64,000 nt of DNA, from contig JAVYWK010000006.1 in NCBI GenBank assembly GCA_038727095.1, forward strand, positions 11,235 through 75,234, in the 5' to 3' direction. Under the pieces are notes generated by a model that was not told where the DNA came from, ran no database searches, and was given only the letters and a program-made list of their open reading frames with translations. The DNA is from Thermofilaceae archaeon. GTDB lineage: Archaea; Thermoproteota; Thermoprotei; Thermofilales; Thermofilaceae. How positions within the stretch are numbered: position 1 is the first letter of the stretch; every line of letters starts with the position of its first letter. Below, one piece after another: positions 772 to 23,083 of the stretch. The translations under genes and the position numbers were made by a program.

Positions 772-3021
772 TTAAACTGTGGGTGTGCGCACTTGGGTTT
801 TTCGGGAGGCCCAGTCTGTTCTCGCCTCCTCGACTGGTTCGATCTCGACGAGTATGTTGTAGGGCTCATGCCCTCTCCTGAGAACCGCTCGACCTACGAT
901 CCCTGCTTGGAACCACGATAGTTCGATGGGGGTTAGGGCCATGTAGACCTGCGTCATAGATACGTAGTCAGGGTCGCTGTGAGAGAGAGCGAGCTTCCAG
1001 CCCGCAACCCTCCTAAACGCCTCAGGTACGTCGCCCCACTCGTGGGTGAGCATGACGACTGCCAGCCCAAACTTCCTCAGCATCCTCGCCATCGTGACGA
1101 TCAGAGGCTCCGTGTAACCTGGAGGGGGAAGCATGAAAAGGTGACCTTCATCAACGATGAGCAGCCACCTCGGCTCACTCAAGCCACGAGCTATGGCGCA
1201 GTCGCGGAGCTGAGATAGTAGGAGGTCGAACACGACCCTCTGCACCTCTACCGGCATTGCCGTGTAGCTCCCCTTCGCTGTGCTACCCATACAGAGTACA
1301 AACGGCTTGCCCGCTGAGATGAGATCTTCTAAGCTGATTTCCTCTCCCATGAAGTAGTCCTGAAGCCTCTCCAGCTTCCACTCAAGGCTCGTACCCCTCG
1401 CAAGCTCCACTAGCTGTTGGAAGCTCGAAACCCCCCTTGCGAGGCACCTCCTCAGCAGGTGGGCCTCGTACTCGCTAAGCGGGCTTAAGTACGTAAGCGC
1501 TCTCTCAAAGTCGCTGGCGCTGCAGAGGAGCGGGTTAAAGGGTCGGTCCCAAAGATCCAGTATCTCAAATTCGAACTTCTCGGCGAAGGCCCTGTACTCC
1601 CCCGAGGGGTCGACTATGATCGGGGTGATCCCCTTCTCCATCGCCCTCAGCGCGAGGGTTCGGGCCGTGGTGCTCTTGCCGGAGCCCATCGGACCCACGA
1701 TCAGCCCGTGCACGTTCTCCAGCAAGTCCAGCTCCAGCCAAACCTCCTCGTCCCTCCTCACGCCCCGACCCAGGTAGATGGCCCTCGGCGTCCTCCTTGT
1801 GCGCGGTCTAAAGAATGTGTAGGGGGCCAACCAAGCGAGCTGGCAGCTGATCTTCACTTGAGAATCTTTTAGCGGGTAGCCTACTAAAGTGGTAAGCCGC
1901 TTGAGCGTTCGTGGTCTTCCCACTAGGGACACCAGCGAGAAGTCTCTTTCAAGCCCTAGCGGCTCGTAGCGCCACACATCACCGCTAACGAAAATCGCAA
2001 CCGAGAAAGGTTTGGACCCCCCCTCAAGAGCGCGGTTCATGTTGATCACGTTTAGGGCCTTAAACTCGTCAGCTAGCTTGCTGACTCCTGCTCTACCTGC
2101 TTCAAGCACTTCAAGCGCCCTCTTGACGCTGGCTCCGAAAGTCGCCAGGTCTTCCGGGACTAGGAGAGCTAGCAGGGAATCATCGCTCCACGTGAAGGCG
2201 CTAGCAAAGCTCCTCACAATGGATGCGGCTCCAGCCTGGTCAGGTACTTCCGCGATGCTGTACCTCAAAGGCATCAGGGTCTTCGGTGCTAAGAGGCAAC
2301 GTCCACCTCTCACTATCCTCAGCTCCAGCGGAATTAGTGGCAGAGGTATCAGCGCCAAAGGCGCGAGAGCCGGGTATAGCACGAGGGAAAGCGTTAAGGT
2401 TCCCAGCATTAGTACGCTAAACATGGGTAGAGTGGGATGGAAATTCCTCTCATTTAATTCGGCGACCGCGGAGAGAACTTCGAGAGGTTCAACGGGCCTT
2501 GTGCGAACGCCTAAACCTAACAAGCGGCGCTGTAGTTCCGCCAGCACATGCGGCACGCTCTTCAGAGCTTCAACCGCGGATTCCGGTAGTACAAAGTTTA
2601 TCTTCAGGTAGTAATTACGCAAACCGTTATCGGAAGAAGATACGATATTCACAGTCGCTGAGGGAAGGTACAGTGAGGATACGAAGTGGGTGGCCATCTC
2701 GCCCAATCTCACATCGCTCTCCGGTAGATCTACACTATCTACCTTCAAAAAGGCAGATAATACGTAACCTCTTCTTGTTTTTAACATTATGTAATCTTTT
2801 TTAACTTTAACCTCGGTGATGGGGTCTAGAAGCAAGCTTTTTTCTCCGTAAACCAGTTCGATGAGCTCAACTCTCTTAGTATAGATGTAGTAGCCCCCCA
2901 GTATCAGAGCTAGGATAGCGGGAGGTAGGACTGTTCTACCGGCTATAGCCGCAATCAGGGCCAGCATCATCGCGAAGAAGAGAATGATCGCTGAAGCTCC
3001 CGGTAGGTACACGCCGCTCAC
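772..3021 (-). CDS. cedB: VirB4/HerA-FtsK family ATPase with N-terminal membrane segments (CedB/TedB-like DNA-transfer ATPase)
   Basis: Walker A GPMGSGKS, IVDPSGEY, Walker B LLIVDEGH and RKFG motif, with hydrophobic helices in the N-terminal third. It is the last gene of an operon with CedA-like genes. Start is at GTG 3021 or GTG 3012 (GGAGGTGA SD). Confidence 0.8.
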   Translation of the reverse strand: MSGVYLPGASAIILFFAMMLALIAAIAGRTVLPPAILALILGGYYIYTKRVELIELVYGEKSLLLDPITEVKVKKDYIMLKTRRGYVLSAFLKVDSVDLPESDVRLGEMATHFVSSLYLPSATVNIVSSSDNGLRNYYLKINFVLPESAVEALKSVPHVLAELQRRLLGLGVRTRPVEPLEVLSAVAELNERNFHPTLPMFSVLMLGTLTLSLVLYPALAPLALIPLPLIPLELRIVRGGRCLLAPKTLMPLRYSIAEVPDQAGAASIVRSFASAFTWSDDSLLALLVPEDLATFGASVKRALEVLEAGRAGVSKLADEFKALNVINMNRALEGGSKPFSVAIFVSGDVWRYEPLGLERDFSLVSLVGRPRTLKRLTTLVGYPLKDSQVKISCQLAWLAPYTFFRPRTRRTPRAIYLGRGVRRDEEVWLELDLLENVHGLIVGPMGSGKSTTARTLALRAMEKGITPIIVDPSGEYRAFAEKFEFEILDLWDRPFNPLLCSASDFERALTYLSPLSEYEAHLLRRCLARGVSSFQQLVELARGTSLEWKLERLQDYFMGEEISLEDLISAGKPFVLCMGSTAKGSYTAMPVEVQRVVFDLLLSQLRDCAIARGLSEPRWLLIVDEGHLFMLPPPGYTEPLIVTMARMLRKFGLAVVMLTHEWGDVPEAFRRVAGWKLALSHSDPDYVSMTQVYMALTPIELSWFQAGIVGRAVLRRGHEPYNILVEIEPVEEARTDWASRKTQVRTPTV

Positions 3022-6000
3022 CTCCTCAAAAGGCGGAGGTTGTCCTCCACCCAAATGCTTAGTTTAACATAGTAACCAATAATTTTAACTGCAACTCTTT
3101 GCCACCGCTCAAGCGCATCTAGGAGATCTGCGCTTTCAGGGCGAACGCTCCTGCGTAAAGCCAACTTTAAGTCGGAGCATTCGGCTAAAAGAGCTTCTAT
3201 CGTTTTAATTGCAATGATCAAGCTCTGATGTAGACCCTCCAACCGACCTATGAGCTCCCTTCGCTCAGCTTGAGCCTCAGCAGCTAAAGCAACACTCCTA
3301 CCGGGTGGGGGCAGGAGCCCGTAGTGCTCAACCGATTTTAACCGCTCATCGACCTCAACGAGCGTGTTCGCGAGCTCTCGGTACACTCTTTCAAGGAAAC
3401 CACCCGCAGAACGCACCAATGCTTGATCCTCGAAGAGCGGCCTAAGTCTCCTAACCGCAATTTCGAATATCTCTCTCACGAGCGCCTCCGCTCCTCCCTG
3501 TTTTTCGGAAAGAGCCGCAGCCCAACCAGCCCAGTACATGTCACCGCTAAGGATCAACGCATCTACCGCGCCGCTCAGATCCATGTCCCTATCCCCCCGC
3601 AGAGCATCCGCGTAGCCTTGCAGGAAGCGTGTTGCTTGCTCATCAACTCCTTCATCCCTCAGAGCATTACTGAGGTCAAAGCTCGTGACCCCTCTCGCCC
3701 ACATGCTTGCAACTTCGAGCAGTAAGCTCTTGACCTCAGGGTGAAGACGCGGAAGGAACCATGGCTCCCTACCCTCGGCTAGCTCGCTCGCCGCTCTTAT
3801 GAGCAGGTAGCGCCAAGGTTGGTTACGCTCAAGCGACGTAAGCCATACCGCGCCCAGATCCGTTTCAAACCCCCTTTCTCGACTTACTCTAGATAGGGTG
3901 GTGGCTATGGCTTCCCACCACGCTGTTCTAACCACGGAATCACCGATTGCCGCCTTATCTGCGATTGAAAGCGCAGCTGCCGGATAACGCTCGAGTAGTT
4001 TGAAAAACTCTTTTCGAGTGAAACCCTCTGCGGCAGCTAGTCCAATGATCCTGGCGGCGAGCTCCTCCACCGATCCAAAGGACGCTCCTCCGAGGTAGCG
4101 ATCGTATCTGGCTATAAGGTGCGGGCGTTGCGACGCAAGACGCTCGAGCTTGGATAAGCTCCTTGAAGGATCACGCCCCGCGAGGACATCGCGCGCAACT
4201 GCCGCGAGGTACTTCTCGAACTCCAACTTGGGCTTCTTCATCCTCCTCAAATCTCCTTCCGACATTTCCTTCGGGTAGAGTAGGTGATAGCCCCTAACGA
4301 AATGCTTTGTGTAACGAACTGTTTGAGTTAACGTTCCGAGCCGAGCTTCGAGGAGTAGCGAAGCTGCGTAAAGGGTATCGCTAGCAATGATGAGCTTCCG
4401 CGCTACAGGGTCAGTTAGAGCTAGACGGAGCTTCTCAACGTACGGAACGTACAGCCGCACTCTGCTTAAGGCGGTTCTTTCCGCTACTTCGCTTGCAACT
4501 CGAAGCAGTGCAGGCAAGGGGTGGAGACTGTGGTACCTCGACCATGCCTGAAAGAGCTTTGCAGTCGCTCTTCTGAGCCGGCTACGTCGGTGGTCTAGAC
4601 CCCTTCTGAGCTGCTCTATGCTCATCCGAATTTCTACGGCTGGATCGAGAGCCGTGAGGATCAGAGGCTCCCTCAAGCTTCGAGGATCGTGCCCGAATTT
4701 AACCGTGATAGCGATCTCCATAAACAGCGATGTAAAACTCCTACCAATCTGCTCAAGATTATAGAGCGTTGAGCGCAGCGGCTTCAATATTGGAGGGAGA
4801 TGGAGTGCGCCGAAGCCTCCAATGACACTGGACAGGAATGCTGTTGCGACTACCACGGCGAATAAAAGAACGGCTAACTGGGCTAATAGACCAACATGCT
4901 CTAAAAGGGAGGCTGCGCTGATTCTTAAGCGTTCAGCCACGGTACCGTTGAGGATCGGTTCGAGGTCCCCATCGTATAGCAGGCCCGCAATTACGCTTTC
5001 GTTCATTAGGGTAAATGCTGACAGAGCGCGCTCAGCTGGGCACCTTTCATCCCCACTTAGGAGCGAGAGTATAACCTCAAACCTTTCCGGTGGAAAACCG
5101 GATTTCGCAGGCCCAATGACAGCCGGTTCTACGAGATCCCCGTAGTACCTAGCATGCACAATAACTTTGGGAACGTTAGACCTGGGCCAGAGCGATCTAG
5201 AGTAGAAGACGCTTCCGTCGACCTCAGCAGCTTCAATCATCCCTCTACCGTAAAGGCAGACTTTCACTCCACTGTAGTTAGTTAAAGGTGGCATGGAGGC
5301 ATTAATCAACCGGGCCCATTGATCGAACCATAGGGCTTCGATCGACCTAGCGTCGGGGAGTGATGGTTCAACGTAGCTGATCTCGCAGCTTAAAATAGGT
5401 TCGAGTTCAACGATTTCATTGCCTACTTTCAACCTGCTCATACCCTTCTTTAGAACAGTCGGTATCCCATTTTCGCATATAGCATTAAAATCGAAGTGCC
5501 CCTCAATCCGAGCAGTTACTTCTATGAACTTTACATTAATATCAACTATTTCTCCAGATGATAATCTGATCTTTATAGTTTCATTCCCTTCCCTCCATTC
5601 ACAATAGCTTGGATGAAGAATAGCAACTATCTGATGATCACTAAGAAAGTTACTTACGTTGTACCATGGTAGCGGGCCGGTAAACCTCTCTGAACCGTCA
5701 AGAACGAAGAAACCTCTAGCCCTCCAGTATCCCCATCCTTTTCCTACATCCGTTGCATCATAGAATAAAACCAAAGCATCCTCTGAAGCGCTCACATTTA
5801 CGGTGACCCATGTAATATTTTCTACGTGAACTTTACACTCAGGCACCGTTCCTGGCAACCCATCACATGCTACCTTTAGTTGAGCCCCCTTCTCCGGCCT
5901 GAACGTAGTTTTTAATACCGGCAGCCAGTAACCAGCGTAACTAACGCCCAGCGCAACATAATCTGAATCTCTTTCCAGGTACCATTGACCGAGCGGGCGA

Positions 6001-6782
6001 GCTAACACCCTTCCTCCTTGGTCAGAGTACACTAACACTCCCCCAGGAGGGATTGGGTACAGCTCCTCATGAACGGAGATCACTTCTTCCCTAATGCTAG
6101 CTTTAGGTGTTCGGAATAATCCCTGTAAATGGATTGCACCTACGTCGTCAACCCTCTCAGGAGCTCTTTCGGGTTGGCCGAAGCGGGGGGTTAGTAAGTT
6201 TACTATAGCAGGTAAAGCTAAAGACACTGATACAGCGATTGCGAAGAGGGTCGCTCCTAGCCTCCTAGTTCTTCTGGGTATCATCAGAAGCCCAGCAAAT
6301 GGGAAAAGCGAACGAAAAAGTTGAGATATCTCAGCGATCTTTATAAAGAGCTGACCTACGAACCGGTAAACACTCGATATAGCAACGTAAGCGTTTGATA
6401 AGCTCAGTAGAGCGTTGATACCACTCTGAGCTAAGAATGCCGTTGCGACGAACCCTTTAACTGCGAGGAGTACGGAAATAGCAGCCAAAGCTATGGAGCT
6501 GACAATCGATAAATAGTAGCTCCATTTCACGGCGTTGGTTAATGCCTCCTCCGCTGATTTAATTAATTCTACCCCATTTCTTCGCGCGAGATCTGTTGAA
6601 AAGAGTTCAATCGGTGCACCGCTCAGTCGTGAAGCAGCCTCCACCAAATCTATCGTTACCAAGAGAACTGAAATTATAAAAAATGCTACTGGCGCTACTA
6701 AACGCTCGCCTTTACGCTTCGCGAAAACTACGGCGAATGCCGCCTCAGTTACTAAAACCATCGTAAAGGCATCCGCTATCAT
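3018..6782 (-). CDS. Giant (1254 aa) CedA/VirB6-like membrane protein with a large extracellular domain and a long C-terminal helical region
   Basis: ATG 6782 overlaps the upstream stop (ATGA). The N-terminal multi-TM block has a CedA-like motif (GLLMIPRRTRRLGATLFAIAVSVSLALP). Then come ~400 aa rich in N-X-S/T sequons, a further TM, and an Ala/Leu/Arg/Glu-rich tail. Confidence 0.65.
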   Translation of the reverse strand: MIADAFTMVLVTEAAFAVVFAKRKGERLVAPVAFFIISVLLVTIDLVEAASRLSGAPIELFSTDLARRNGVELIKSAEEALTNAVKWSYYLSIVSSIALAAISVLLAVKGFVATAFLAQSGINALLSLSNAYVAISSVYRFVGQLFIKIAEISQLFRSLFPFAGLLMIPRRTRRLGATLFAIAVSVSLALPAIVNLLTPRFGQPERAPERVDDVGAIHLQGLFRTPKASIREEVISVHEELYPIPPGGVLVYSDQGGRVLARPLGQWYLERDSDYVALGVSYAGYWLPVLKTTFRPEKGAQLKVACDGLPGTVPECKVHVENITWVTVNVSASEDALVLFYDATDVGKGWGYWRARGFFVLDGSERFTGPLPWYNVSNFLSDHQIVAILHPSYCEWREGNETIKIRLSSGEIVDINVKFIEVTARIEGHFDFNAICENGIPTVLKKGMSRLKVGNEIVELEPILSCEISYVEPSLPDARSIEALWFDQWARLINASMPPLTNYSGVKVCLYGRGMIEAAEVDGSVFYSRSLWPRSNVPKVIVHARYYGDLVEPAVIGPAKSGFPPERFEVILSLLSGDERCPAERALSAFTLMNESVIAGLLYDGDLEPILNGTVAERLRISAASLLEHVGLLAQLAVLLFAVVVATAFLSSVIGGFGALHLPPILKPLRSTLYNLEQIGRSFTSLFMEIAITVKFGHDPRSLREPLILTALDPAVEIRMSIEQLRRGLDHRRSRLRRATAKLFQAWSRYHSLHPLPALLRVASEVAERTALSRVRLYVPYVEKLRLALTDPVARKLIIASDTLYAASLLLEARLGTLTQTVRYTKHFVRGYHLLYPKEMSEGDLRRMKKPKLEFEKYLAAVARDVLAGRDPSRSLSKLERLASQRPHLIARYDRYLGGASFGSVEELAARIIGLAAAEGFTRKEFFKLLERYPAAALSIADKAAIGDSVVRTAWWEAIATTLSRVSRERGFETDLGAVWLTSLERNQPWRYLLIRAASELAEGREPWFLPRLHPEVKSLLLEVASMWARGVTSFDLSNALRDEGVDEQATRFLQGYADALRGDRDMDLSGAVDALILSGDMYWAGWAAALSEKQGGAEALVREIFEIAVRRLRPLFEDQALVRSAGGFLERVYRELANTLVEVDERLKSVEHYGLLPPPGRSVALAAEAQAERRELIGRLEGLHQSLIIAIKTIEALLAECSDLKLALRRSVRPESADLLDALERWQRVAVKIIGYYVKLSIWVEDNLRLLRR

Positions 6783-7573
6783 ATTCTCAAGCGCGAAATG
6801 ACCGTATCCGCTAACCCTCCTGCTGCAACGGCTATCCCGACACTTAATACTCCCGCTATGCCTATAGAGATCGAGATCCAAGCTGCGAACTCTCCCATCA
6901 CTTTCGCATCACTGACGACCTCGTTTACCGCTCCGGCAAAGTATTGAGCTATTCCAGAGAGAGGAATTCCGATGTATTTGAACTTTAACGCCTGAGAATT
7001 CTCCAAGAAGTAGGGTGCTGCAGCTCCTACAACCACTTCAAGGCTTGCTATGCTCACGGCCAGAGAAGCCCCTAGCCTCCTCACCCTGCTAACGCCTGCC
7101 AACACTACCCCTAGGCTTGAAAGCGAAGATCCAAAAAACTCGCAAAAGCGAGCCGCGATTAAGAGTGTGCTTGAGAGGGCCACGAGATAACTTGTAAAAA
7201 TATTTGCTAGGCTACTAGCCGCGTACCATGTTGAGGCAAGAGGTGAGAGGATGCCCGTCAGCGTAAGATCCCGTGCAACGTTTGCTAGATCCATTACGTA
7301 ACTCGTGTAACGGTCCCTAGCGGCTGCGTAGAAGGCTGCAGCAGTACTGGGCTCAAGGTAACTTATTCCAAAGGCTCCCACTAGAAGAGGTGCCGATACT
7401 AAGATGGAGGCTAGGATCACACCCGTTACGCAGGATTCTATAGCACTGTATATGACCTCGTAGCCTCTTGCTTTATGCTGAGGCGAAGGTAGATTAAGGA
7501 GCCAAGCTCCGTAGGCCAGCTCAGCCGCAACTACGGTTGTTGCGATAGCGTAGGGGAGAAAACTAATCGTCAT
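6779..7573 (-). CDS. cedA: CedA/TedA-like (VirB6-like) polytopic membrane protein
   Basis: 264 aa with ~6 hydrophobic segments. The motifs YGAWLLNLPSPQHKARGYEVIYSAI and GVVLAGVSRVRRLGASL resemble crenarchaeal CedA. It lies between a VirB2-like pilin and a VirB4-like ATPase. Confidence 0.7.
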   Translation of the reverse strand: MTISFLPYAIATTVVAAELAYGAWLLNLPSPQHKARGYEVIYSAIESCVTGVILASILVSAPLLVGAFGISYLEPSTAAAFYAAARDRYTSYVMDLANVARDLTLTGILSPLASTWYAASSLANIFTSYLVALSSTLLIAARFCEFFGSSLSSLGVVLAGVSRVRRLGASLAVSIASLEVVVGAAAPYFLENSQALKFKYIGIPLSGIAQYFAGAVNEVVSDAKVMGEFAAWISISIGIAGVLSVGIAVAAGGLADTVISRLRI

Positions 7574-7580
7574 ATCTACC

Positions 7581-7973
7581 TCAGGGCCTACTGAAAATCT
7601 CGTTCCAGTTTACGGCAAAGGGTGTTCCCTGTGGTAGCAACCCAATTGCCACCAGTATATCCGGCAACCAGGCTGCGAAAGCTAGCGCAATTAACCAATA
7701 GAGGGGACCTTCAAGCGCTTCTATGAGCTCTCTTTGCGCTGTGGCAGTTGATAACGCGCCTCCCAGTTGTTTTCTTAGTACTGCAAGCGCGCTTTTTATG
7801 AAAGCTGTTACAAAAATTAGTATGCCCGTCGCCGTCACCGTTATTTTGACTGCTAAAACCGAGTAGTTTCTTACTGTATCCCAATTCACGGTAGGCCCTT
7901 GCGCCTGAACAAGTTCGGTATAGAGAACGACTGTAGTAAGGAGAATGGATATGATTTTGCTATATTTTGTCAT
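7581..7973 (-). CDS. VirB2-like conjugative-type pilin (CedA1/TedC-like)
   Basis: 130 aa from ATG 7973: Sec-type signal peptide ending VQA/Q, then two hydrophobic helices joined by a short basic loop. First gene of the cedA/cedB-like operon. Confidence 0.6.
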   Translation of the reverse strand: MTKYSKIISILLTTVVLYTELVQAQGPTVNWDTVRNYSVLAVKITVTATGILIFVTAFIKSALAVLRKQLGGALSTATAQRELIEALEGPLYWLIALAFAAWLPDILVAIGLLPQGTPFAVNWNEIFSRP

Positions 7974-8114
7974 CGCATGACACCCTTCCTCACTCCTCCT
8001 ACTCCTACCACTCATATGAATCCGCGCACAGAGTTGATCTAAAATTAATTTTAATCTTGCGCCAACAGATGAATGAAAGTAATCACCTAGCATTCCACAA
8101 TGCGGACACGAAAG

Positions 8115-8444
8115 TCATACTCTTCGAATAATGACGGTAAAGTTAATGTGTGAAATCGTCAGCCGAAACTTGCCGCTAAATAGAGTAGTTTTGTTAGCTA
8201 CTGGTATTTTTACAGCTATGTTACACCCATCATGGAAAAGTCCTGTTTCGTTCACCACTACCCGGTCGAGAGTGAATGTGTCCACCACCCACCCCCTCGA
8301 CTGGTTCACCGCGAGTGCTGCCGCTGCGAGCCTTCTCGCCTCGCTGCAGTAGTCCGGCTGCTGCCTCAGCCTCGCCGCCGATAGCGCCGCGAGGACCGCG
8401 GCCGCAACCGCCAAGTATAGGAGGAGCCTCTCCACCTCAGCCAC
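8115..8444 (-). CDS. Small pilin-like/membrane-anchored protein
   Basis: N-terminal MAEVE plus hydrophobic helix, two Cys, beta-rich C-terminus with several N-glycosylation sequons. Confidence 0.6.
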   Translation of the reverse strand: MAEVERLLLYLAVAAAVLAALSAARLRQQPDYCSEARRLAAAALAVNQSRGWVVDTFTLDRVVVNETGLFHDGCNIAVKIPVANKTTLFSGKFRLTISHINFTVIIRRV

Positions 8445-8889
8445 CCTTTCGCGCTCCTCTCTCGCTTCGCTGGGGGTAGTAGGTGCCCATGTAGTAGAAG
8501 TCGTCCCTCCCCATCCTCCTGAGGAGCGTGATGAACACCTCTACATCGTCGGTGAGGCGGAATTTGAAGCCCGCAGGAGCGTAGTCTCTCGCGTGAACCT
8601 CGGCGTAGTAGAAGCCCTTCGGCAGCACCACCTCGAGCCGGCAGTACCTTGCCCCCCGATCCCGCCTCGCCCTCCCGGTGTAGGCGAGCCAGGCGGGCAT
8701 CTCCCAGTCGTCGTACTCCGGGAACTCCTCCTCGAGCTTCTTCACCACCTCCTCCCACTTCCTCCTCACCTCCTCCGGAGTCCCCTCAACGGGCTCGAGG
8801 AACCAGATCTTCACCCAGGTTCTCTTCGGCCTGGATTCGAAACCCACTTCGAGGCGTAAGCGGGCGTACCCCTCCCGCACCCTAACCAC
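8437..8889 (-). CDS. Hypothetical soluble protein in minor-pilin operon
   Basis: 150 aa with overlapping start/stop to both neighbours and GC3-biased codons; no recognisable motif. Confidence 0.6.
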   Translation of the reverse strand: MVRVREGYARLRLEVGFESRPKRTWVKIWFLEPVEGTPEEVRRKWEEVVKKLEEEFPEYDDWEMPAWLAYTGRARRDRGARYCRLEVVLPKGFYYAEVHARDYAPAGFKFRLTDDVEVFITLLRRMGRDDFYYMGTYYPQRSERGARKGG

Positions 8890-9604
8890 CCCTGTGGTGC
8901 ACTGGGACTATCACGCCCCACTCGTCCCTCAGCTTGTAGACGTAAAAAGCTGCCGGAGCTGGAGGGGGCCCCGGCGGCGGGGGGATCGCGGCGGAGAAAT
9001 CCCTCGGAACAGCGATTAGCCACTCGCAGCTTGAAGGATCGAACGATAGGAAGTCCGCATACCCTTGGGGGTCCGCGAGCTTGGGGCAGAGGCTCGCGTT
9101 GAAGAAGGGCGTGGTGTAGCTGTTGCTGTACCTCAACCGAACCTTCACCATCGTTACGGTCTTCAGGGAGCCGCTGACCACTACAGTCTTCGTGTAGGTG
9201 CCCTCCTCCCCCAAGCCCTCCACCCTCGCGTAGTAGGCCACGTACTCAGCCCCCACTGGTGTAGCGAGCGCAAACTTCAGCCCGTACTCAGTCACCCAGC
9301 CCTGCCCGCTCCTCACCGTCCTGTTCAAGAGGTTGTCCGCGGCGCAGGGCGAGAACGTAGGATACATGCGGAGCGGCTCACTCCGATTGAAGCCGGCGAG
9401 GATGGTGAGCAGGCTCTGCATCCTGCTACAGTCGCAAGCTCCGGAGAAGCACGTTCTCGCCAGGTGGATGAGTTGAGCGGCCTGCAGGTGGCCGCGCTCG
9501 TACGCCACGTAGGGGTTCGGGGTCCTTATCGCGGCCAGCGCGATCAGCGTTGCTGCGAGTATAATGACGCCGATCAACGCGAGCTGACCCCTCCTCTTCC
9601 TCAC
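8882..9604 (-). CDS. Type IV minor pilin-like protein with class III signal peptide
   Basis: (M)RKRRG/QLALIGVIILAATLIALAAI: basic leader, Gly cleavage site and hydrophobic helix, followed by a Cys-containing extracellular domain. Confidence 0.7.
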   Translation of the reverse strand: MRKRRGQLALIGVIILAATLIALAAIRTPNPYVAYERGHLQAAQLIHLARTCFSGACDCSRMQSLLTILAGFNRSEPLRMYPTFSPCAADNLLNRTVRSGQGWVTEYGLKFALATPVGAEYVAYYARVEGLGEEGTYTKTVVVSGSLKTVTMVKVRLRYSNSYTTPFFNASLCPKLADPQGYADFLSFDPSSCEWLIAVPRDFSAAIPPPPGPPPAPAAFYVYKLRDEWGVIVPVHHRGG

Positions 9605-9615
9605 TCCCACACCAC

Positions 9616-9939
9616 CTACGGCGTAGCGCATACTCTCACGACCCTGTAGCCCGCGGGCTCGAAGAAGACCACAGCGTAGCAGATCGCTGTCCCCCCAGCC
9701 CCCTCTTTGCCAGCCTTCAACTCTCCGTCAACGTAGACCGCGGCCGCGTGCTCCCCCAGAGCCTGCTGGATTAGGTTCGTGAGCTCGTCTGTATCCCTCG
9801 CGTTGAGAAGTGCCCAGGCTAGAGCCCTCTGAGCTGAGGCGTGGTGCACCGGAGCAGCCTGCTGAGCCGTCAGCGAGACCATGTAGACCGCCGCCACTGC
9901 GAACACCAGCCCGATCGCGGCAGCCTCCAAGTGCCTCAT
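9616..9939 (-). CDS. Small minor-pilin-like protein (probable paralogue of 18384-18701)
   Basis: MRHLE plus hydrophobic helix; the C-terminal G..G...CYA.V....G...V pattern is shared with 18384-18701. Confidence 0.6.
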   Translation of the reverse strand: MRHLEAAAIGLVFAVAAVYMVSLTAQQAAPVHHASAQRALAWALLNARDTDELTNLIQQALGEHAAAVYVDGELKAGKEGAGGTAICYAVVFFEPAGYRVVRVCATP

Positions 9940-12340: not shown

Positions 12341-14857
12341 GTGAGCGGGCTGAAGCTGCTAGCCCTGCTAGCGCTGCTGGCACTGGCACTGCTGACCGCG
12401 ACCGCTCTCGCCGAGAGCAAAACCTGCCAGGACAGCAAGGAGAGCGAGCACGTCTGGGAAACAACGGATAATGTCAAGCAGCGTACCGTCTCTAAGACGG
12501 CGTCGTACAGTTGCTCGGTGAATGTTGTGGGTGGTGGGAGGGTGGCTGTTGGGGGCTCTTTCCAGGTCAGCGCTACCGTCTACGATGCTACTGGCTACGC
12601 GCAGTGGGACTACTATGTGGGGACGAGCCACTCGGTGGGGGGTCTCGGCTGGAGCTTCAGCGACAGCAGCGGCGACCAGACAGTGCTCACGCGGACGTCG
12701 ACCAGCAAGGTAGTCTGGCACTCGGGGAGTGAGAGGAGCTTCAACTTGAACAGCTGCACAACCCTCTCCCCCAGCGGCAGCACTCCGGGCACCTCCACCA
12801 TCACCGTGAGGCGCGCGGAAGCGTGGTTCCTCGTCCTCGCCAGCGCGACAGTAGAGGGGACCAGCTGCGGCTCACCGCCTCCACCGTCACCCCCGCCACC
12901 ATCCCCGCCGCCCCCGTCGAGCTACACCCTCACCATCCAAGTGTACAGGGCGACCGCCAGCGGAGCTACAACCGTGCCGGCGAACGGGACCAGGGTCAGG
13001 ATCGGCGGCACCACGTACACCGCCGACTCGAGCGGCAGGGTCCAAGTTACGCTGCAGCAGGGGAGCTACAGCGTCGAGATCCTCGAGACCTACTACGGCC
13101 CCACTCTGACGGTGGGAGGGCTGACAACGAACTGGCGGCGCTACCGGTTCTGGAAGTGGAGCGATGAGAGCACCAGCAACCCGAGAGACGTCAGCTTGAG
13201 CAGCGACACCACTCTCACGGCCTACGTCTGGGACGAGAGGGCTCTGCTGGTCCGGTGGGAGCCCCACTTCAACGGCGACGCTTGGGGCGTCGCGTTCGCG
13301 ACGAGCGGGGCGCGCATAACCTACGACACCGTAGTATGGCTGAAGAGGGGTCAGACCGTCCAGCTCCTACCGGTAGAGGCTGGAGGCGCGATCTTCACCT
13401 ACTGGCGCGTCGGCACCGAGTGCTACAGGGGTCAGCCCTACAGCAGCGACCCCCTGCTCACGCTGACGGTGGGCGATAGGGGCCTGTCCGCGATCGCGGT
13501 CTTCAGGCTCGCGGCGACGAACCAGACGATGCTCCCGCCGGGCGCCGGTATGGTCAACCCGGTCACCTACATCCCCGGAGCAACGATGGGGGGTGAGGAG
13601 CGGATGGGAAAGAGGGGCTGGTGGCTGATGACCGTCACCCACGTCCCGACGGGCAAGACCTCGCCTGACGAAGCGGGCGTCGACGGGAGGGCCTGGATCT
13701 ACGCCCTGATAGTGAACGAGAACGGGAGCAGCAGGTGGGTTCCTGTAACAGGCGTCTGGAGGCTGCACCTGGCGCAGGACTGGTCTCAAACCCTCTCCAG
13801 GCACGTTAAAGATCTGCCTGGGGGTGTGAAGATCATCGAGTGGAACCGGAGCACGGTCGCAGGGTTCCCCAAGATCCAGGATCCGCAGGAGTGGAGGGAG
13901 TGGTACTTCGTCACTCTCTCGGCCTGGGATCCGCTGGTCTACGAGGAGCTCGGAGGGAGCTACGACACCAGCGGCTTGTGGCTCGCCAACGGCAGTACCC
14001 TGGCTCTGTACAACATCACCTTCGCGTACATGGGCGTCTCCGGGAACCGGGTGGAGTACGTCTACTGGCAGCCCATCGCGGTCTCCACCCTGACCTTCAG
14101 GGCTGAGGCACGCTACACCCTGACGGAGCATGAAGCCGCGCCGCCCGGTAGGCGCAGCATCCTCATGAGCATCTACGTGAACGCAACCTGGAAGTACGTG
14201 CCGCCCCAGTACTGGCAGCTCCTCGGCTTTAGGGTTCATGCTCCGCAGCTCGGCTTCCTCGCCTCCCTCGAGGAGCCCGGTTGCACCGGCACCTTCTGCA
14301 TCGGCTACTGGGCCCCGCCCTCGCAGGCCGGCTCGACCTGGAGGCTGTACGTCATCGGCCTCGGCGACACGGAGGACTTCTACGCGAAGCCGTACCCGAG
14401 GGGCCTGCTCGGCGGCGACGGCTACAGCAGCGTGAGGGAGTTCAGGATCTCGATGAGGTGGATGGGCGCCGGCGGCAGGCCGTCGACCCTCGTCTGGGGC
14501 AGCGATAGGGTTACATTCAAGCTGGCGCCAGCCTCGGTGTACAAGCTGGAGTGGACCGACCCCCGAGGCCCCTTCACGGTGACGTGGGGCTGCTTCGCCC
14601 AGGGGCCCTGGGGCCTCACGCCCATCTCCTCGTACACGGCGGACTTGACGTTCGACTGGGGCGCTACGGGTAGCACGCACCCGCTTAAAGGCACGCAGCG
14701 CTTCAACGGTGTTACCTCACCATACACCGTGAACGTGCAGGTCCCGGCTGACGACTGGATCGCCTTCTACGTGGTACCCGCTGGGGGGAGGTACGCTATC
14801 GCGGAGGGCGAAGTAGTGCCAGTACCCGTCTTCGCCAAGTACCCGCCGAGAGGCTAG
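12341..14857 (+). CDS. Large secreted adhesin-like surface protein with Pro-rich linker
   Basis: Signal peptide, Ser/Thr-rich N-domain, (SPPPP)3 linker, one copy of the ~180-aa module also found in 15485-17773, and a Trp/Tyr-rich C-terminal region. Confidence 0.75.
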   Translation: MSGLKLLALLALLALALLTATALAESKTCQDSKESEHVWETTDNVKQRTVSKTASYSCSVNVVGGGRVAVGGSFQVSATVYDATGYAQWDYYVGTSHSVGGLGWSFSDSSGDQTVLTRTSTSKVVWHSGSERSFNLNSCTTLSPSGSTPGTSTITVRRAEAWFLVLASATVEGTSCGSPPPPSPPPPSPPPPSSYTLTIQVYRATASGATTVPANGTRVRIGGTTYTADSSGRVQVTLQQGSYSVEILETYYGPTLTVGGLTTNWRRYRFWKWSDESTSNPRDVSLSSDTTLTAYVWDERALLVRWEPHFNGDAWGVAFATSGARITYDTVVWLKRGQTVQLLPVEAGGAIFTYWRVGTECYRGQPYSSDPLLTLTVGDRGLSAIAVFRLAATNQTMLPPGAGMVNPVTYIPGATMGGEERMGKRGWWLMTVTHVPTGKTSPDEAGVDGRAWIYALIVNENGSSRWVPVTGVWRLHLAQDWSQTLSRHVKDLPGGVKIIEWNRSTVAGFPKIQDPQEWREWYFVTLSAWDPLVYEELGGSYDTSGLWLANGSTLALYNITFAYMGVSGNRVEYVYWQPIAVSTLTFRAEARYTLTEHEAAPPGRRSILMSIYVNATWKYVPPQYWQLLGFRVHAPQLGFLASLEEPGCTGTFCIGYWAPPSQAGSTWRLYVIGLGDTEDFYAKPYPRGLLGGDGYSSVREFRISMRWMGAGGRPSTLVWGSDRVTFKLAPASVYKLEWTDPRGPFTVTWGCFAQGPWGLTPISSYTADLTFDWGATGSTHPLKGTQRFNGVTSPYTVNVQVPADDWIAFYVVPAGGRYAIAEGEVVPVPVFAKYPPRG

Positions 14858-14913
14858 CGCTAAACAGCGCTAAACAAATAAATACGATCATTTTTCTCTT
14901 CTTGAGGAGCCTA

Positions 14914-15495
14914 ATGGTGCCTCTGAAGTACCTGCTAATCGCTCTAGCCTTGGTGGCCGCCACAGGCCTAGTTACAGCCTTCCTGCAGAGGGTCTTCACG
15001 AGGAGCGAGCCGCTAATGGGCTGGGAGGACGCGCTGGAGCTCCGCAGAGCGTTGAGCGCTGGTAGGGCTTCGCTCACCTTCACCGCCTACGCCGCCGAGC
15101 TCCCCTTCACGGTGAACGTGACGCTCGACGGCAGGCTGTACTGGCTCCCCCTGAGGAGGGTGCTGGTCTACTTCAGGGCCCGGGACGCCCCCGTGTTTGA
15201 GGAGCCCCTGCTGCAGCTTTGGCGCGCTTGGGGCAACGGGACGCACGCTGGCGCAGCCTCAGCCCTGGATATCAGCGACGACGGCTCAACCATCTACATC
15301 AAGTACCTGGCCTTGAGCAGCGGTTTCCCGAGTAGGGGTAGCAGCTTCTGCCTGGGGCAGGGTGCCGAGGATCCCAGCTACGGTTTCTCCTCCCAATCGG
15401 GCGGCAGGGTGGACGTGCTGGGCGCGAGCTACGAGTGGAGCGGCCGGAGGCTGGTGAAGGTTGTCAAGATAGAGGTGGTCCAGTGTGGCGGTTGA
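14914..15495 (+). CDS. Minor pilin-like membrane-anchored protein
   Basis: MVPLKY plus hydrophobic helix and a beta-rich body; overlaps the start of the following adhesin gene. Confidence 0.6.
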   Translation: MVPLKYLLIALALVAATGLVTAFLQRVFTRSEPLMGWEDALELRRALSAGRASLTFTAYAAELPFTVNVTLDGRLYWLPLRRVLVYFRARDAPVFEEPLLQLWRAWGNGTHAGAASALDISDDGSTIYIKYLALSSGFPSRGSSFCLGQGAEDPSYGFSSQSGGRVDVLGASYEWSGRRLVKVVKIEVVQCGG

Positions 15496-18383: not shown

Positions 18384-18701
18384 CTAGCCTTTCGCCTCGA
18401 CCAGCAGTAGCGTGCCGTTCACGCTCACCAAGGTGTAGGCGTAGCAGCGCCCCCCGCTGCCTCCCCTGGAGAGCACTCTGCCGTCCGGGTAGCGGAGGAC
18501 AATGGTGAAGCCTGAGGGGGGTTTCACGCCGCTCCAGCCCGCCAGAGTGATGTTCTGCGCGGCCTGCCCTGCTACCTCCAGCGCTCTAGCGTAGCAGTCG
18601 AACGCGAGCGTGTAGGCTCTGGACCCCCTAGCGTAGAAGGAGAGGAGGAGCATAGCTGCTAGCACGGTTGCAGCGACAGTGAGCAGGGCGTCAACCCTCA
18701 C
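18384..18701 (-). CDS. Small minor-pilin-like protein
   Basis: MRVDA plus hydrophobic helix and two Cys; last gene of the platform-protein operon. Confidence 0.65.
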   Translation of the reverse strand: MRVDALLTVAATVLAAMLLLSFYARGSRAYTLAFDCYARALEVAGQAAQNITLAGWSGVKPPSGFTIVLRYPDGRVLSRGGSGGRCYAYTLVSVNGTLLLVEAKG

Positions 18702-20173: not shown

Positions 20174-20212
20174 AAGAACAGAAAAATATAATTTGATTTA
20201 AACCTTACCCTC

Positions 20213-20647: not shown

Positions 20648-20649
20648 CC

Positions 20650-21111: not shown

Positions 21112-21161
21112 CGACTTAAAAAACATTCTGTTATTTTTATTCCTTTCGCCGCGTGAGGCTT

Positions 21162-23032: not shown

Positions 23033-23083
23033 AAGGTTAGTGAGAAAACTTTGAATTTATTCTTTTCTCGTTAGTCGTGGGGG

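What the first reader, a model, noticed from the sequence alone, without database searches (positions are those of the whole stretch)
772..7973. Four-gene Ced/Ted-like operon with a signal-peptide-bearing VirB2-like pilin
Seen: tightly coupled order pilin, CedA-like, giant CedA-like, VirB4-like ATPase, with ATGA/GTGA overlaps. The pilin has a cleavable-looking signal peptide and two hydrophobic helices, while the 264-aa protein reads like Sulfolobales-type CedA. Inference: a lineage-specific variant of crenarchaeal conjugation-like DNA import.
Basis: partly seen in the sequence, partly recalled or inferred. Interest (0 to 1): 0.72.

Follow-up and report, generated by a model that had tools for sequence, protein, structure and literature searches.

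The report
Ted-like conjugation-type pilus operon, Thermofilaceae
A hot-spring archaeon of the family Thermofilaceae carries, fixed in its chromosome, a diverged copy of the conjugation-derived "Ted" pilus and DNA-transfer machinery known from its sister order, with an undescribed pilin family and a giant channel-like protein.

Summary
The four minus-strand genes are real and tightly coupled (ATGA and GTGA overlaps). They are conserved in 5 of 5 genomes of the genus and in other families of the order.

- **Channel protein:** the 264-aa protein is a TedA (VirB6/CedA-like) homologue (hhalign 97%, E 5e-11; best Foldseek hits are R388 VirB6).
- **ATPase:** it is TedB/VirB4-like. Its ATPase domain clusters with Thermoproteales TedB, and its N-terminal domain aligns to TedB's (96.6%). 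It is not repair HerA and not a CedB equivalog.
- **Pilin:** the small protein has a signal peptide and a two-helix hairpin. It belongs to a very small family (12 representatives in 1.84 billion) that the TedC profile does not detect, but that aligns to TedC profile-to-profile (90%).
- **Giant protein:** the 1254-aa protein starts with a second VirB6-like domain. Similar giants sit in verified Ted loci.

The operon is larger than reported. Five small N-terminally anchored proteins and a type IV pilus-like/ParA/ParB locus accompany it in 6 of 6 genomes examined.

Verdict: a Thermofilales variant of the known Ted system. A signal peptide on the pilin is already known for TedC. DNA import is inferred, not shown. 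VirB4 in Thermofilales is already in print.

The parts
772..3021 (-). TedB-like (VirB4-like) membrane-anchored ATPase, 749 aa from GTG 3021 (alternative starts GTG 3012, TTG 3054). Walker A and Walker B are intact.
   Evidence: Pfam DUF87 36.4 bits. Best NCBIfam hits are VirB4_plasma 7.9e-11, CedB 6.6e-8 and conju_CD1110 3.6e-7, all far below their cut-offs. Tree: clade with Thermoproteales TedB-like ATPases, SH-aLRT 97. The N-terminal domain aligns to the TedB N-terminal domain, hhalign 96.6%, E 5.2e-10, 245 columns. Invariant GxxGxGKS and DE columns in 11 orthologues.
3018..6782 (-). Giant membrane protein, 1254 aa. It has an N-terminal VirB6/TedA-like domain of about 5 membrane helices (1-205), an ectodomain of about 410 aa (206-615), a membrane helix (632-650) and a C-terminal domain of 574 aa.
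   Evidence: hhalign of the 264-aa family against the giant's N-terminus: 79%, E 1.6e-5, 65 columns sharing an R-x-R-R-L-G motif; reversed control 0.1%. All 8 N-x-S/T sequons and 7 of 8 Cys lie in 206-615. No significant Pfam hit (only Wtap, E 0.21, 11.9 bits against a cut-off of 35), no NCBIfam hit and no PDB sequence match. Conserved in 8 aligned orthologues.
6779..7573 (-). TedA homologue (VirB6/CedA-like polytopic membrane protein), 264 aa, six long helices
   Evidence: hhalign against the TedA family: 97.1%, E 5e-11, 241 columns; reversed control 1.4%. A jackhmmer profile built only from Thermoproteales TedA reaches the G030 orthologue at E 1.8e-9. AlphaFold2 model pLDDT 79.8, pTM 0.72. 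The top 5 Foldseek PDB hits are all TrwI/VirB6 of R388 (best E 1.3e-2, prob 0.99, TM 0.34).
7581..8015 (-). Predicted signal-peptidase site V-Q-A | Q-G; mature protein 106 aa; two-helix hairpin.
   Evidence: Model. In the family alignment, 15 of 18 members match a small-x-A cleavage pattern and 18 of 18 carry a W-L-P-D-x-L-like motif. hhalign against the TedC family: 89.9%, E 1.7e-6, 54 columns; reversed control 0.6%. Start codon argument.
8040..8055 (-). AT-rich TATA-box-like stretch about 30 bases upstream of ATG 8015 (inferred internal promoter)
   Evidence: Read directly from the sequence. Not tested. In genus g6 the pilin gene follows the upstream gene after only about 25 bases, so the promoter may be specific to this lineage.
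8115..8444 (-). 109-aa protein with one N-terminal membrane helix, conserved upstream partner of the pilin gene
   Evidence: jackhmmer finds it in G002, G004, G003, G001, G014 and G009, and weakly in G030. No Pfam family above cut-off.
8437..8889 (-). 150-aa ORF present only in this strain group (an insertion between conserved genes)
   Evidence: Found only in G000 and G002. Metagenome contigs join 8446 to 8745 or 8871, skipping it (table 5).
8882..9631 (-). 249-aa protein with a class-III (type IV pilin-like) signal-like N-terminus (basic residues, G-Q, then a hydrophobic helix)
   Evidence: N-terminus read. The same R/K-G-Q plus helix appears in the orthologues of G030, G025 and G029. Family conserved in 9 further loci of 8 genomes, G003, G004, G009, G014, G002, G030, G001, G025 and G029; G002 counts once. 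Cleavage is not tested.
9616..9939 (-). 107-aa protein with one N-terminal membrane helix, conserved cluster member
   Evidence: jackhmmer: G009, G003, G014, G004, G029, G030, and G025 weakly.
12341..17773 (+). Three further conserved cluster genes, here inverted onto the + strand: 838-aa secreted protein, 197-aa N-anchored protein, and a 762-aa N-anchored protein with repeated InlB-B-repeat-like domains
   Evidence: Homologues lie directly upstream of the cluster, on the same strand, in G003, G009, G014, G030 and G025. Pfam Flg_new_2 5.1e-11.
18384..27434 (.). Neighbouring type IV pilus-like/partition-like locus: 105-aa and 418-aa (at least 5 membrane helices) proteins, two class-III-signal pilins (20213-21126), T2SSE-family ATPase (23326-24870), ParA-like (25332-26078), ParB-like (26544-27434, + strand)
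   Evidence: Pfam T2SSE 1.7e-16, ParB_N 6.7e-11, AAA_25/CbiA. Best NCBIfam hits of the ATPase: TadA conjugal-transfer-associated 3e-17, TrbB 1.5e-14, VirB11 3.6e-10. The locus lies next to the Ted-like cluster in 6 of 6 genomes examined.

Best explanation
This is the Thermofilales counterpart of the Ted system (Thermoproteales exchange of DNA), a chromosomally fixed derivative of a conjugative type IV secretion system. The small protein is exported by the Sec pathway, loses its signal peptide and sits in the membrane as a two-helix hairpin. The 264-aa TedA/VirB6-like protein forms the membrane platform, probably together with the VirB6-like N-terminal domain of the giant protein. The membrane-anchored VirB4-like ATPase extracts pilins and drives their polymerisation into a hollow, VirB2-type pilus, and perhaps also DNA passage. 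The giant adds a glycosylated ectodomain and a large cytoplasmic domain, in the manner of 'extended VirB6' proteins. By analogy with Ced and Ted, the machine moves chromosomal DNA between cells of the same species. Shown here: homology of three parts to TedA, TedB and (weakly) TedC, the operon structure, conservation and the fixed chromosomal position. Inferred: pilus formation, DNA as the substrate, direction of transfer, and the giant's role.
For: Anchor to the solved system: a 152-aa protein of a Thermoproteaceae genome (G114) matches PDB 8dft_A 'Pilin protein' at E 1.2e-11. 8DFT is TedC of P. calidifontis according to the Fig. 1 legend of PMC11823120. In that locus the genes run TedB, TedC, TedA, giant.

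Against these anchors:
- TedA family vs the 264-aa family: hhalign 97.1%, E 5e-11, 241 columns; reversed control 1.4%. A TedA-only jackhmmer profile hits the G030 orthologue at E 1.8e-9 and no other ORF outside the TedA family in the set of ORFs from the fetched loci.
- ATPase: the ATPase-domain tree puts the Thermofilales ATPases with the Thermoproteales TedB-like ATPases (SH-aLRT 97). They lie on the VirB4/CedB side of a 99-supported split from HerA, CedD and the genome's own HerA-like paralogues.
- The N-terminal domain, which was not used in that tree, aligns to TedB's (96.6%, E 5.2e-10, 245 columns) and to CedB's (78.6%). Reversed controls: 0.1% (TedB), 0.4% (CedB).
- Pilin vs TedC family: hhalign 89.9%, E 1.7e-6; reversed control 0.6%.
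- Fold: the pilin is a helical hairpin behind a signal helix. The top 5 PDB hits of the 264-aa model are all R388 VirB6.

Chromosomal and vertical inheritance: the operon sits next to sua5 in 5 of 5 genomes of the genus. Identities to G002/G004/G001/G003 follow the neighbour's: Sua5 95/68/71.5/64.5, ATPase 95.5/62.6/61.4/56.6, 264-aa 94/64/70/61, pilin 95/62.5/59/60. No integrase, relaxase or replication family appeared among the Pfam hits for the ORFs scanned between 1 and 44.5 kb. The ATPase had no tblastn match in 72,556 plasmid records.

Other ATPases of the genome: the genome has separate HerA-like genes (best 190 bits, contig C30) and a CedD/TedD-like candidate on contig C7 (123 bits; groups with CedD at SH-aLRT 96).

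Weak hint of expression: contigs of one RNA library, from a 90-95% similar strain, cover 25 of 30 bins and bridge the pilin/264-aa and 264-aa/giant junctions.
Against: No step of the function is tested.
- The TedC profile finds nothing in 0 of 41 genomes of this order, and the pilin profile finds nothing in 0 of 60 Thermoproteales genomes. The pilin link rests on one 54-column profile-profile alignment and a 17-bit HMM hit.
- Fold searches with the pilin model returned only generic helical hairpins (ATP synthase c subunits, designed bundles). No conjugative pilin was among the rows shown.
- The VirB6 Foldseek hits have weak E-values (1.3e-2 and above) and TM-scores near 0.33.
- The AU test does not reject a tree that joins the Thermofilales ATPases to the HerA/CedD side (lnL 19.5 worse, p 0.09).
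- The three bacterial VirB4 N-terminal domains did not align to this one.
- The system is patchy. The pilin was found in 10 (plus one weak hit) of 41 genomes of the order, and in 0 of 8 genomes of genus g7 (probably Thermofilum). One of these, G010, keeps a 46%-identical ATPase without the other three genes.
- The RNA-library contigs may contain DNA and come from a relative.
Confidence: 0.7

Rival explanations
1. It is the mating apparatus of an integrated conjugative element or domesticated plasmid remnant. It exports the element's own DNA, rather than serving the host as a DNA import or exchange system.
For: All parts are T4SS-like. ParA- and ParB-like genes and a TadA/TrbB/VirB11-like ATPase lie in the conserved neighbourhood. 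The distribution in the order is patchy: pilin in 10-11 of 41 genomes. The four genes have lower G+C (46-55%) than the genes just upstream (62-65%).
Against: The position next to sua5 is the same in 5 of 5 genomes of the genus, and divergence tracks that housekeeping neighbour. No integrase, relaxase or Rep family was found among the Pfam hits for ORFs between 1 and 44.5 kb. The 11 kb to the left of the window read by eye as ordinary genes but were not scanned against families. No tRNA gene in the window. No match in the plasmid collection. The operon's G+C lies within the genome's own spread: mean 56.5%, SD 5.4%, 5th percentile 48% for 2-kb windows.
Confidence: 0.12
2. It builds a T4SS-type pilus or channel used for something other than DNA: adhesion or aggregation, protein or effector delivery, or other cell-to-cell exchange.
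For: Nothing here identifies DNA as the substrate. No relaxase was found, and no HerA-NurA or Rad50 gene lies beside the operon. The giant carries a large, probably glycosylated ectodomain. The cluster is linked to adhesin-like repeat proteins (Flg_new_2) and to a type IV pilus-like locus.
Against: The only experimentally characterised relatives move or import DNA (Ced) or are proposed to (Ted) (PMC9905601 passages; PMC11823120 passages). A CedD/TedD-like coupling-type ATPase candidate exists in the genome. ParA/VirC1-like genes accompany Ted loci in print, and a ParA-like gene does so here.
Confidence: 0.13
3. The ATPase is a repair-type HerA helicase, and the membrane proteins beside it are unrelated neighbours.
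For: The Pfam hit is to the HerA central domain, DUF87. The best PDB sequence hits are HerA-like helicases at E around 1e-3. The AU test does not reject a HerA-side placement (p 0.09).
Against: HerA_Thermprot scores only 16.3 bits (E 0.0025) against the ATPase, whereas VirB4_plasma scores 40.4. A whole-genome search with HerA_Thermprot does not list this gene at E 1e-5 but finds other loci at up to 190 bits. The Walker A motif sits about 440 residues in, behind membrane helices, as in TedB (376-405), and unlike Sulfolobaceae HerA (about 147). The N-terminal domain is homologous to TedB's. The four genes overlap translationally and stay together across families.
Confidence: 0.03

Closest known systems
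Ted system of Thermoproteales (TedA, TedB, TedC; Beltran et al. 2023, PMC9905601; TedD added in PMC11823120)
   Same: Chromosomal T4SS derivative. The pilin has a Sec-type signal peptide and a two-helix hairpin, and a polytopic VirB6-like gene lies directly downstream of the pilin gene. The VirB4-like ATPase is membrane-anchored. TedA homology is clear (97%) and TedB homology covers both domains. Verified or TedC-family-containing Ted loci that I inspected also carry a giant membrane protein with 5-7 N-terminal helices: 6 of the 15 Thermoproteales loci fetched, in G112 (two loci), G114, G081, G078 and G076.
   Different: The pilin is a separate sequence family: the TedC profile hits 0 of 41 genomes here and the pilin profile hits 0 of 60 there. 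The gene order is pilin, TedA-like, giant, ATPase in one overlapping operon. In P. calidifontis, as published, the ATPase lies upstream and a few genes away. Five small N-anchored proteins precede the pilin gene and were not found in the Thermoproteales loci. A type IV pilus-like locus lies alongside. No Rad50 or HerA gene lies in the immediate locus.
Ced system of Sulfolobales/Desulfurococcales (CedA, CedA1, CedA2, CedB; CedD and CedE added in 2025)
   Same: Same overall parts list and presumed ancestry. There are two VirB6-like paralogues here, which recalls CedA plus CedE (PMC11868833 abstract). The ATPase N-terminal domain aligns weakly to CedB's (78.6%). A CedD-like ATPase is encoded elsewhere in the genome.
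   Different: There is no CedB equivalog: 31.6-33 bits against a cut-off of 700. CedA1/CedA2 lack signal peptides according to PMC11823120, whereas this pilin has one. In the tree CedB forms its own clade (SH-aLRT 100), outside the 97-supported Thermofilales+TedB clade. CedA itself could not be compared, because no CedA sequence was obtained.
Bacterial conjugative T4SS core (VirB2, VirB6, VirB4) and 'extended VirB6' proteins such as F TraG and the Rickettsia VirB6 paralogues (the comparison with F TraG is recalled; the Rickettsia paper PMC2653234 was seen only in a search listing)
   Same: Hairpin pilin with signal peptide, VirB6-like fold, VirB4-side placement of the ATPase. The giant has a VirB6-like N-terminus followed by a very large extension.
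   Different: No outer-membrane core, no VirB3/5/8-11 homologues recognised by sequence, no relaxase. No sequence-level match to the plasmid collection.

Membership tests
Ted system (Thermoproteales exchange of DNA) | TedC: VirB2-like pilin with a cleavable Sec signal peptide, homologous to Pcal_0765 (PDB 8DFT) | tested here: inconclusive
   Signal-peptide-like N-terminus and hairpin are present. No phmmer or profile match to 8DFT, and the TedC profile finds nothing in this genome. Profile-profile alignment to 30 TedC-family members gives 89.9%, E 1.7e-6, over 54 columns, against 0.6% for the reversed control.
Ted system (Thermoproteales exchange of DNA) | TedA: polytopic VirB6/CedA-like protein encoded next to the pilin gene | tested here: met
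   hhalign 97.1%, E 5e-11, 241 columns. jackhmmer bridge via G030 at E 1.8e-9. The gene starts 7 bases after the pilin stop. The best Foldseek hits are R388 VirB6.
Ted system (Thermoproteales exchange of DNA) | TedB: membrane-bound VirB4-like ATPase | tested here: met
   Clade with Thermoproteales TedB-like ATPases, including the one adjacent to the 8DFT-matching pilin (SH-aLRT 97). N-terminal domain homology 96.6%. Caveat: AU test p 0.09 for the HerA-side alternative.
Ted system (Thermoproteales exchange of DNA) | Forms a lipid-containing conjugative-type pilus; transfers DNA | not testable with these tools
   Needs filaments from cells, or genetics.
Ced system (Sulfolobales) | CedB equivalog ATPase | tested here: not met
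   NF041017 scores 31.6 bits against a cut-off of 700. No match over the cut-off anywhere in the genome, whereas 7 of 7 Sulfolobaceae-like genomes (f33) have one.
Ced system (Sulfolobales) | CedA1/CedA2 pilins without a signal peptide | tested here: not met
   This pilin has an N-terminal signal-like segment with a small-x-A site. The Ced feature is taken from PMC11823120.
Ced system (Sulfolobales) | CedA channel protein homology | tested here: inconclusive
   No CedA sequence could be obtained. A joint TedA plus 264-aa profile gave only two weak hits in 5 Sulfolobaceae genomes, to 203/207-aa proteins without pilin-like neighbours. The TedA-CedA link is known only from print (HHpred 98.6).
Bacterial VirB/D4-type conjugative T4SS | VirB6-like fold of the polytopic protein | tested here: inconclusive
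   The top 5 Foldseek hits are TrwI/VirB6 (prob 0.92-0.99), but E is 1.3e-2 or weaker and TM is 0.28-0.34.
Bacterial VirB/D4-type conjugative T4SS | Relaxase and origin of transfer | tested here: not met
   No relaxase family among the Pfam hits for the ORFs scanned between 1 and 44.5 kb. The rest of the genome was not scanned for relaxases.
HerA repair helicase | HerA_Thermprot-type sequence with a short N-terminal barrel, usually with NurA/Mre11/Rad50 | tested here: not met
   16.3 bits, E 0.0025. Not listed in the genome-wide HerA search. About 440 residues with membrane helices precede Walker A. The tree separates it from HerA, although the AU test gives p 0.09.

The most novel reading that the evidence does not exclude
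The four genes may be the core of a conserved super-locus of about 27 kb that forms one composite mating apparatus. It would comprise a type IV pilus-like module (TadA/VirB11-like ATPase, platform protein, class-III-signal pilins), five small N-anchored pseudopilin-like proteins, large secreted repeat proteins, ParA/ParB, and the Ted-like pilus/channel. Within it, the giant 'extended VirB6' protein, which also occurs in bona fide Ted loci, would be an unrecognised core subunit of archaeal Ted-type machines. It would link the channel to a glycosylated ectodomain outside the cell and to a 570-aa docking domain inside.
Probability: 0.3. Interest if true: 0.7.

Novelty: new variant of a known kind. 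Interest (0 to 1): 0.5.

Why it matters
Ced and Ted are the only known cases of a conjugation machine domesticated for chromosomal DNA exchange. In print they cover Sulfolobales, Desulfurococcales and Thermoproteales. For Thermofilales, the text I read mentions only the presence of 'VirB4' and 'CedD' (PMC11868833, section 9).

This locus supplies the missing pilin and channel genes for that order. It defines a third, very small pilin sequence family. It also points to a giant VirB6-like protein that accompanies the known Ted genes and has not been discussed in the text I read. These are concrete targets for cryo-EM of pili and for testing how partner contact and DNA passage are coupled in archaea.

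It does not change the picture of what such systems are.

Tried and rejected
- **The search for related loci on genome contigs.** Tried with the ATPase alignment and with the G010 ATPase. Both scans found no confirmed relative, so organism names came only from protein-source names.
- **Plasmid collection.** tblastn of the ATPase found no match.
- **Pilin against PDB by sequence.** The single sequence and the profile gave only chance-level rows.
- **Pilin fold searches.** Foldseek 'pdb' and VIA-align wide returned generic helical hairpins. The best Z was 8.5, within the range the tool gives for chance helical matches. No conjugative pilin was among the rows shown, so the fold is compatible with VirB2 but not specific to it.
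- **Shallow hhalign runs.** 8 vs 5 pilins gave 6%; 8 vs 3 TedA gave 26%. They became informative only with deeper alignments.
- **Complex prediction, 264-aa protein with the mature pilin.** Verdict 'no answer' (score 0.00). This is evidence neither for nor against binding.
- **Hypervariable ectodomain of the giant.** Rejected. Identity to relatives is evenly low in all four regions, for example 41/44/35/39% to G004. The whole protein evolves about twice as fast as its neighbours.
- **Giant against PDB by profile.** No match. A protein search with the giant alignment listed only 4 proteins, under the tool's candidate cap. Two carry no source name, one is listed with '-' as the window's own protein, and one is named 'hypothetical protein [Thermofilaceae archaeon]'.
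- **Protein Atlas on the 249-aa upstream protein.** Only unnamed archaeal clusters, and no model held.
- **CedA by family accession.** My guess, NF041016, turned out to be ArnR.
- **Bacterial reference plasmids by recalled accession.** BR000038 and AP001918 are not in the collections. References were taken instead from annotated hits of a TedB query.
- **G+C as a sign of foreign origin.** The operon (46-55%) lies within the genome's own spread.
- **RNA evidence.** One RNA-library run holds contigs of a related strain. The cover is patchy, and the parts without cover mean nothing.

Full report
**What is there**

On the minus strand of the window four ORFs run head to tail.
- A 264-aa protein, 7573..6779.
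- A giant, 6782..3018, 1254 aa.
- An ATPase, 3021..772, 749 aa.

One search shows the junctions. There are 7 bases between the first two genes. The 264-aa stop and the giant's start overlap as ATGA. The giant's stop and the ATPase start overlap as GTGA.

The pilin gene more likely begins at the ATG at 8015 (144 aa). The nearest relative, G002, has no ATG at the 7973 position but keeps the upstream one. An AT-rich TATA-like stretch (8040-8055) lies about 30 bases before 8015. Either start leaves the same signal-peptide-like segment, ending V-Q-A before Q-G, and a mature protein of 106 aa.

**Whose genome**

The nearest database homologues of the ATPase are named 'DUF87 domain-containing protein [Thermofilaceae archaeon]' or '[Thermofilum sp.]' by their sources. 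The genome is a 1.86-Mb, 52-contig assembly, 92% complete. The stretch occurs in hot-spring metagenomes: 11 runs from 5 studies hold 78% or more of its sampled words.

**Library look-ups**

- Pfam and NCBIfam recognise nothing in the pilin or the 264-aa protein. In the giant the only hit is a sub-threshold Wtap match.
- The ATPase hits DUF87 (36.4 bits). Among NCBIfam models it scores best against VirB4_plasma (7.9e-11), CedB (6.6e-8), conju_CD1110 (3.6e-7) and CedD (6.9e-7), all far below their cut-offs. HerA_Thermprot scores 16.3 bits.
- The genome has no CedB over the cut-off.
- It has other HerA-like genes, up to 190 bits, and a CedD-like candidate on another contig (123 bits).

**Conservation**

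A whole-genome search found full-length ATPase orthologues in all 5 genomes of the genus (96, 63, 60 and 57% identity to the window's), in other genera of the family and in other families of the order.

By tblastn all four genes are syntenic in 7 of the 13 fetched loci; in the other 6 only the ATPase was found. In the genus the operon always ends next to sua5.

Identities to G002/G004/G001/G003 track that neighbour:

| Protein | G002 | G004 | G001 | G003 |
|---|---|---|---|---|
| Sua5 | 95 | 68 | 71.5 | 64.5 |
| ATPase | 95.5 | 62.6 | 61.4 | 56.6 |
| 264-aa | 94 | 64 | 70 | 61 |
| pilin | 95 | 62.5 | 59 | 60 |
| giant | 90 | 41 | 38 | 33 |

This is what vertical descent in the chromosome predicts. 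The giant evolves about twice as fast as the others, and evenly along its length.

**Anchoring to the solved Ted system**

An ATPase profile search over the 120 genomes of the class found weaker matches in about 650-700-aa ATPases of two other families, f14 and f15. I fetched 15 such neighbourhoods.

In one of them (G114) the ATPase gene is followed by a 152-aa signal-peptide protein, a 273-aa polytopic protein and a large membrane protein. The 152-aa protein matches PDB 8dft_A 'Pilin protein' at E 1.2e-11. According to the Fig. 1 legend of PMC11823120, 8DFT is TedC of Pyrobaculum calidifontis. These are therefore genuine Ted loci, and they supply TedC, TedA and TedB sequences obtained by tool.

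**The 264-aa protein is a TedA homologue**

- A jackhmmer profile that held only Thermoproteales TedA proteins hit the G030 orthologue of the 264-aa protein. The hit was E 1.8e-9 over nearly its full length. It reached no other ORF outside the TedA family in the set. One round later it hit the window's own protein at 2.3e-11.
- hhalign of 9 Thermofilales against 12 TedA sequences gives 97.1%, E 5e-11, 241 columns. With the template reversed it gives 1.4%.
- The AlphaFold2 model (pLDDT 79.8, pTM 0.72) has six long helices. Its five best Foldseek PDB hits are all TrwI/VirB6 of plasmid R388 (prob 0.92-0.99), though with weak E-values (from 1.3e-2) and TM-scores of about 0.3.
- I could not compare it with Sulfolobales CedA. 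The TedA-CedA link is taken from Beltran et al. (HHpred 98.6).

**The ATPase is TedB/VirB4-like**

I built a quick maximum-likelihood tree of the ATPase domain with 50 rows:
- 12 Thermofilales-order ATPases
- 13 Thermoproteales ATPases
- two from other families of the class (f11, f13)
- 5 CedB, 5 CedD and 4 HerA from Sulfolobaceae-like genomes, all over the NCBIfam cut-offs
- 6 paralogues from the window's own genome
- 3 bacterial VirB4-family proteins

A split with SH-aLRT 99 separates HerA, CedD and the paralogues from bacterial VirB4, CedB and the rest. The Thermofilales and Thermoproteales ATPases form one clade (97).

The AU test does not reject forcing the Thermofilales group to the HerA side (lnL 19.5 worse, p 0.09), so the tree alone is not decisive.

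Independent support comes from the roughly 400-residue N-terminal region, which was not used in the tree. It aligns to TedB's at 96.6%, E 5.2e-10, over 245 columns, and to CedB's at 78.6%. Reversed controls: 0.1% (TedB), 0.4% (CedB). It does not align to the three bacterial N-terminal domains.

**The pilin**

The model (pLDDT 78) shows a signal helix and a hairpin of two long helices. Fold searches return only generic hairpins, so they cannot discriminate.

The family is tiny. A profile search of 1.84 billion representatives found 12 proteins at E 1e-3 or better, three of which look like repeat artefacts. Of 18 members, 15 match a small-x-A cleavage pattern; the other three are a long-ORF call of the window's own gene, a truncated protein, and one with an L-H-A site. 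All 18 carry a W-L-P-D-x-L-like motif.

The TedC profile hits 33 of 120 class genomes, all of them in f14 and f15, and 0 of 41 in this order. The pilin profile hits 10 genomes plus one weak hit, all in this order, and 0 of 60 in f14 and f15.

Profile against profile, the two families align over helix 1, the loop and the start of helix 2: 89.9%, E 1.7e-6, 54 columns, against 0.6% for the reversed control. The shallower version gave 47.7%.

I read this as a probable but unproven distant homologue of TedC. Position (directly upstream of the TedA homologue), size, signal peptide and hairpin all agree. A signal peptide is itself the published trait of TedC, in contrast to CedA1.

**The giant**

Its first 205 residues hold about five membrane helices. 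They align to the 264-aa family (79%, E 1.6e-5; reversed control 0.1%) around a shared R-x-R-R-L-G motif, which TedA also has in degenerate form.

Residues 206-615 contain all eight N-x-S/T sequons and seven of eight cysteines, so this part is probably outside the cell. One strongly hydrophobic helix follows (632-650). After it comes a basic 574-aa domain that has no sequons and is probably cytoplasmic.

Giants of similar layout lie in 6 of the 15 Thermoproteales loci I fetched. The Thermofilales giants align to those of f14 at 60%, E 8.5e-5, in the same motif region. That is suggestive only.

**The operon is part of something larger**

Upstream on the same strand lie a 109-aa, a 150-aa (strain-specific), a 249-aa and a 107-aa gene. 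The conserved ones start with a single hydrophobic helix, and the 249-aa protein has a basic G-Q N-terminus like a class III signal.

These families recur in the same order in other genomes of the order, together with a 197-aa protein and a protein with a 'D-E-A-L'-type N-terminus. In this window those two proteins and an 838-aa secreted protein are inverted onto the + strand, at 12341-17773.

Beyond them lies a type IV pilus-like locus:
- two class-III-signal pilins
- a 418-aa polytopic protein
- a T2SSE-family ATPase whose best NCBIfam hits are TadA conjugal-transfer-associated, TrbB and VirB11
- ParA- and ParB-like genes

Homologues of this locus lie within about 10 kb of the Ted-like cluster in 6 of 6 genomes examined, from three families. 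Whether the two machines work together is inference.

**Mobile element or host system**

I found no integrase, relaxase or Rep family among the Pfam hits for the ORFs scanned from 1 to 44.5 kb. There is no tRNA gene in the window and no plasmid match. The ORFs in the 11 kb to the left of the window read by eye as ordinary genes but were not scanned against families. The operon's G+C (46-55%) lies within the genome's own range.

Against a purely vertical story, the system is patchy in the order. In one g7 genome (G010) only the ATPase remains.

**Expression**

Contigs from one RNA library, from a strain 90-95% alike, cover 25 of 30 bins. They bridge the pilin/264-aa and 264-aa/giant junctions. 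The tool warns that DNA may be present in such libraries, so this is only a hint.

**Literature**

- Beltran et al. 2023 (PMC9905601, passages) define Ted in five Thermoproteales genera; Thermofilum is not among them.
- van Wolferen and colleagues 2025 (PMC11823120, passages) add TedD. They remark that other genes of the locus may belong to the system.
- Wu et al. [quoted passage not shown]
- Three full-text searches turned up no paper in the held library that describes the pilin, the TedA-like gene or the giant in Thermofilales. I did not open the supplements of the two 2025 papers, which may list such genes.

**Earlier notes of this scan**

Earlier AI notes describe a conjugation-like cluster with ParA and a VirB11/TadA-type ATPase in another Thermofilaceae genome. 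They also describe a locus joining a pilus to a Ced/Ted-like channel elsewhere. These agree with my reading but are not independent evidence.

**Verdict**

This is a Thermofilales variant of the Ted system, with a pilin family of its own, a second, giant VirB6-like subunit and a wider conserved neighbourhood. Its function in DNA exchange is inferred from relatives.

Noticed in passing
window 8437-8889 (-): A 150-aa ORF is wedged between two conserved cluster genes and occurs only in this strain group (G000, G002). Contigs of three metagenome DNA runs join 8446 to 8745 or 8871 and so lack it. It has no family hit.
   Followed up: partly
window 15485-17773 (+): The N-anchored 'D-E-A-L' protein is 762 aa here, against 107-206 aa in relatives. 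The extra length is internal repeats of roughly 90-180 aa with InlB-B-repeat-like (Flg_new_2) matches, and it resembles part of the neighbouring 838-aa protein.
   Followed up: partly
window 12341-17773 (+) versus 772-9939 (-): Relative to G003, G009, G014, G030 and G025, where all cluster genes lie on one strand, this genome has the three most upstream genes inverted. They are separated from the rest by a 490-aa secreted protein and a 169-aa protein.
   Followed up: partly
window 18384-27434: A type IV pilus-like locus (T2SSE ATPase with TadA/TrbB/VirB11-like best hits, two class-III-signal pilins, a 418-aa platform-like protein, ParA- and ParB-like genes) is kept next to the Ted-like cluster in 6 of 6 genomes examined, from three families.
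   Followed up: partly
G000 contig C7:62141-62923 (-), outside the window: A 337-aa ORF scores 123 bits against the CedD model and groups with CedD in the ATPase tree (SH-aLRT 96). It is a TedD-like coupling-ATPase candidate encoded away from the operon.
   Followed up: partly
L020 (G010, genus g7, complete genome), 10453-12594: An orthologous ATPase (46% identity in the alignment) stands without recognisable pilin, TedA-like or giant genes upstream. It may be a remnant of the system in a Thermofilum-like genome.
   Followed up: partly
window 7581-9939: G+C steps sharply from 46-51% (pilin, 264-aa, giant) to 62-65% in the genes immediately upstream, although both sets are conserved partners in other genomes.
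   Followed up: no
window 31377-34619 (+): A 1080-aa DEAD/DEAH-box helicase lies a few kb beyond the ParB-like gene. An earlier AI note on another Thermofilaceae genome mentions a helicase within a conjugation-like cluster.
   Followed up: no
L062 (G076, f14), 8804-14282: In this Thermoproteales locus the order is TedB-like ATPase, TedC-family pilin, then directly a 913-aa protein with 6 N-terminal helices and no separate TedA gene. This may be a natural TedA-giant fusion or replacement.
   Followed up: no
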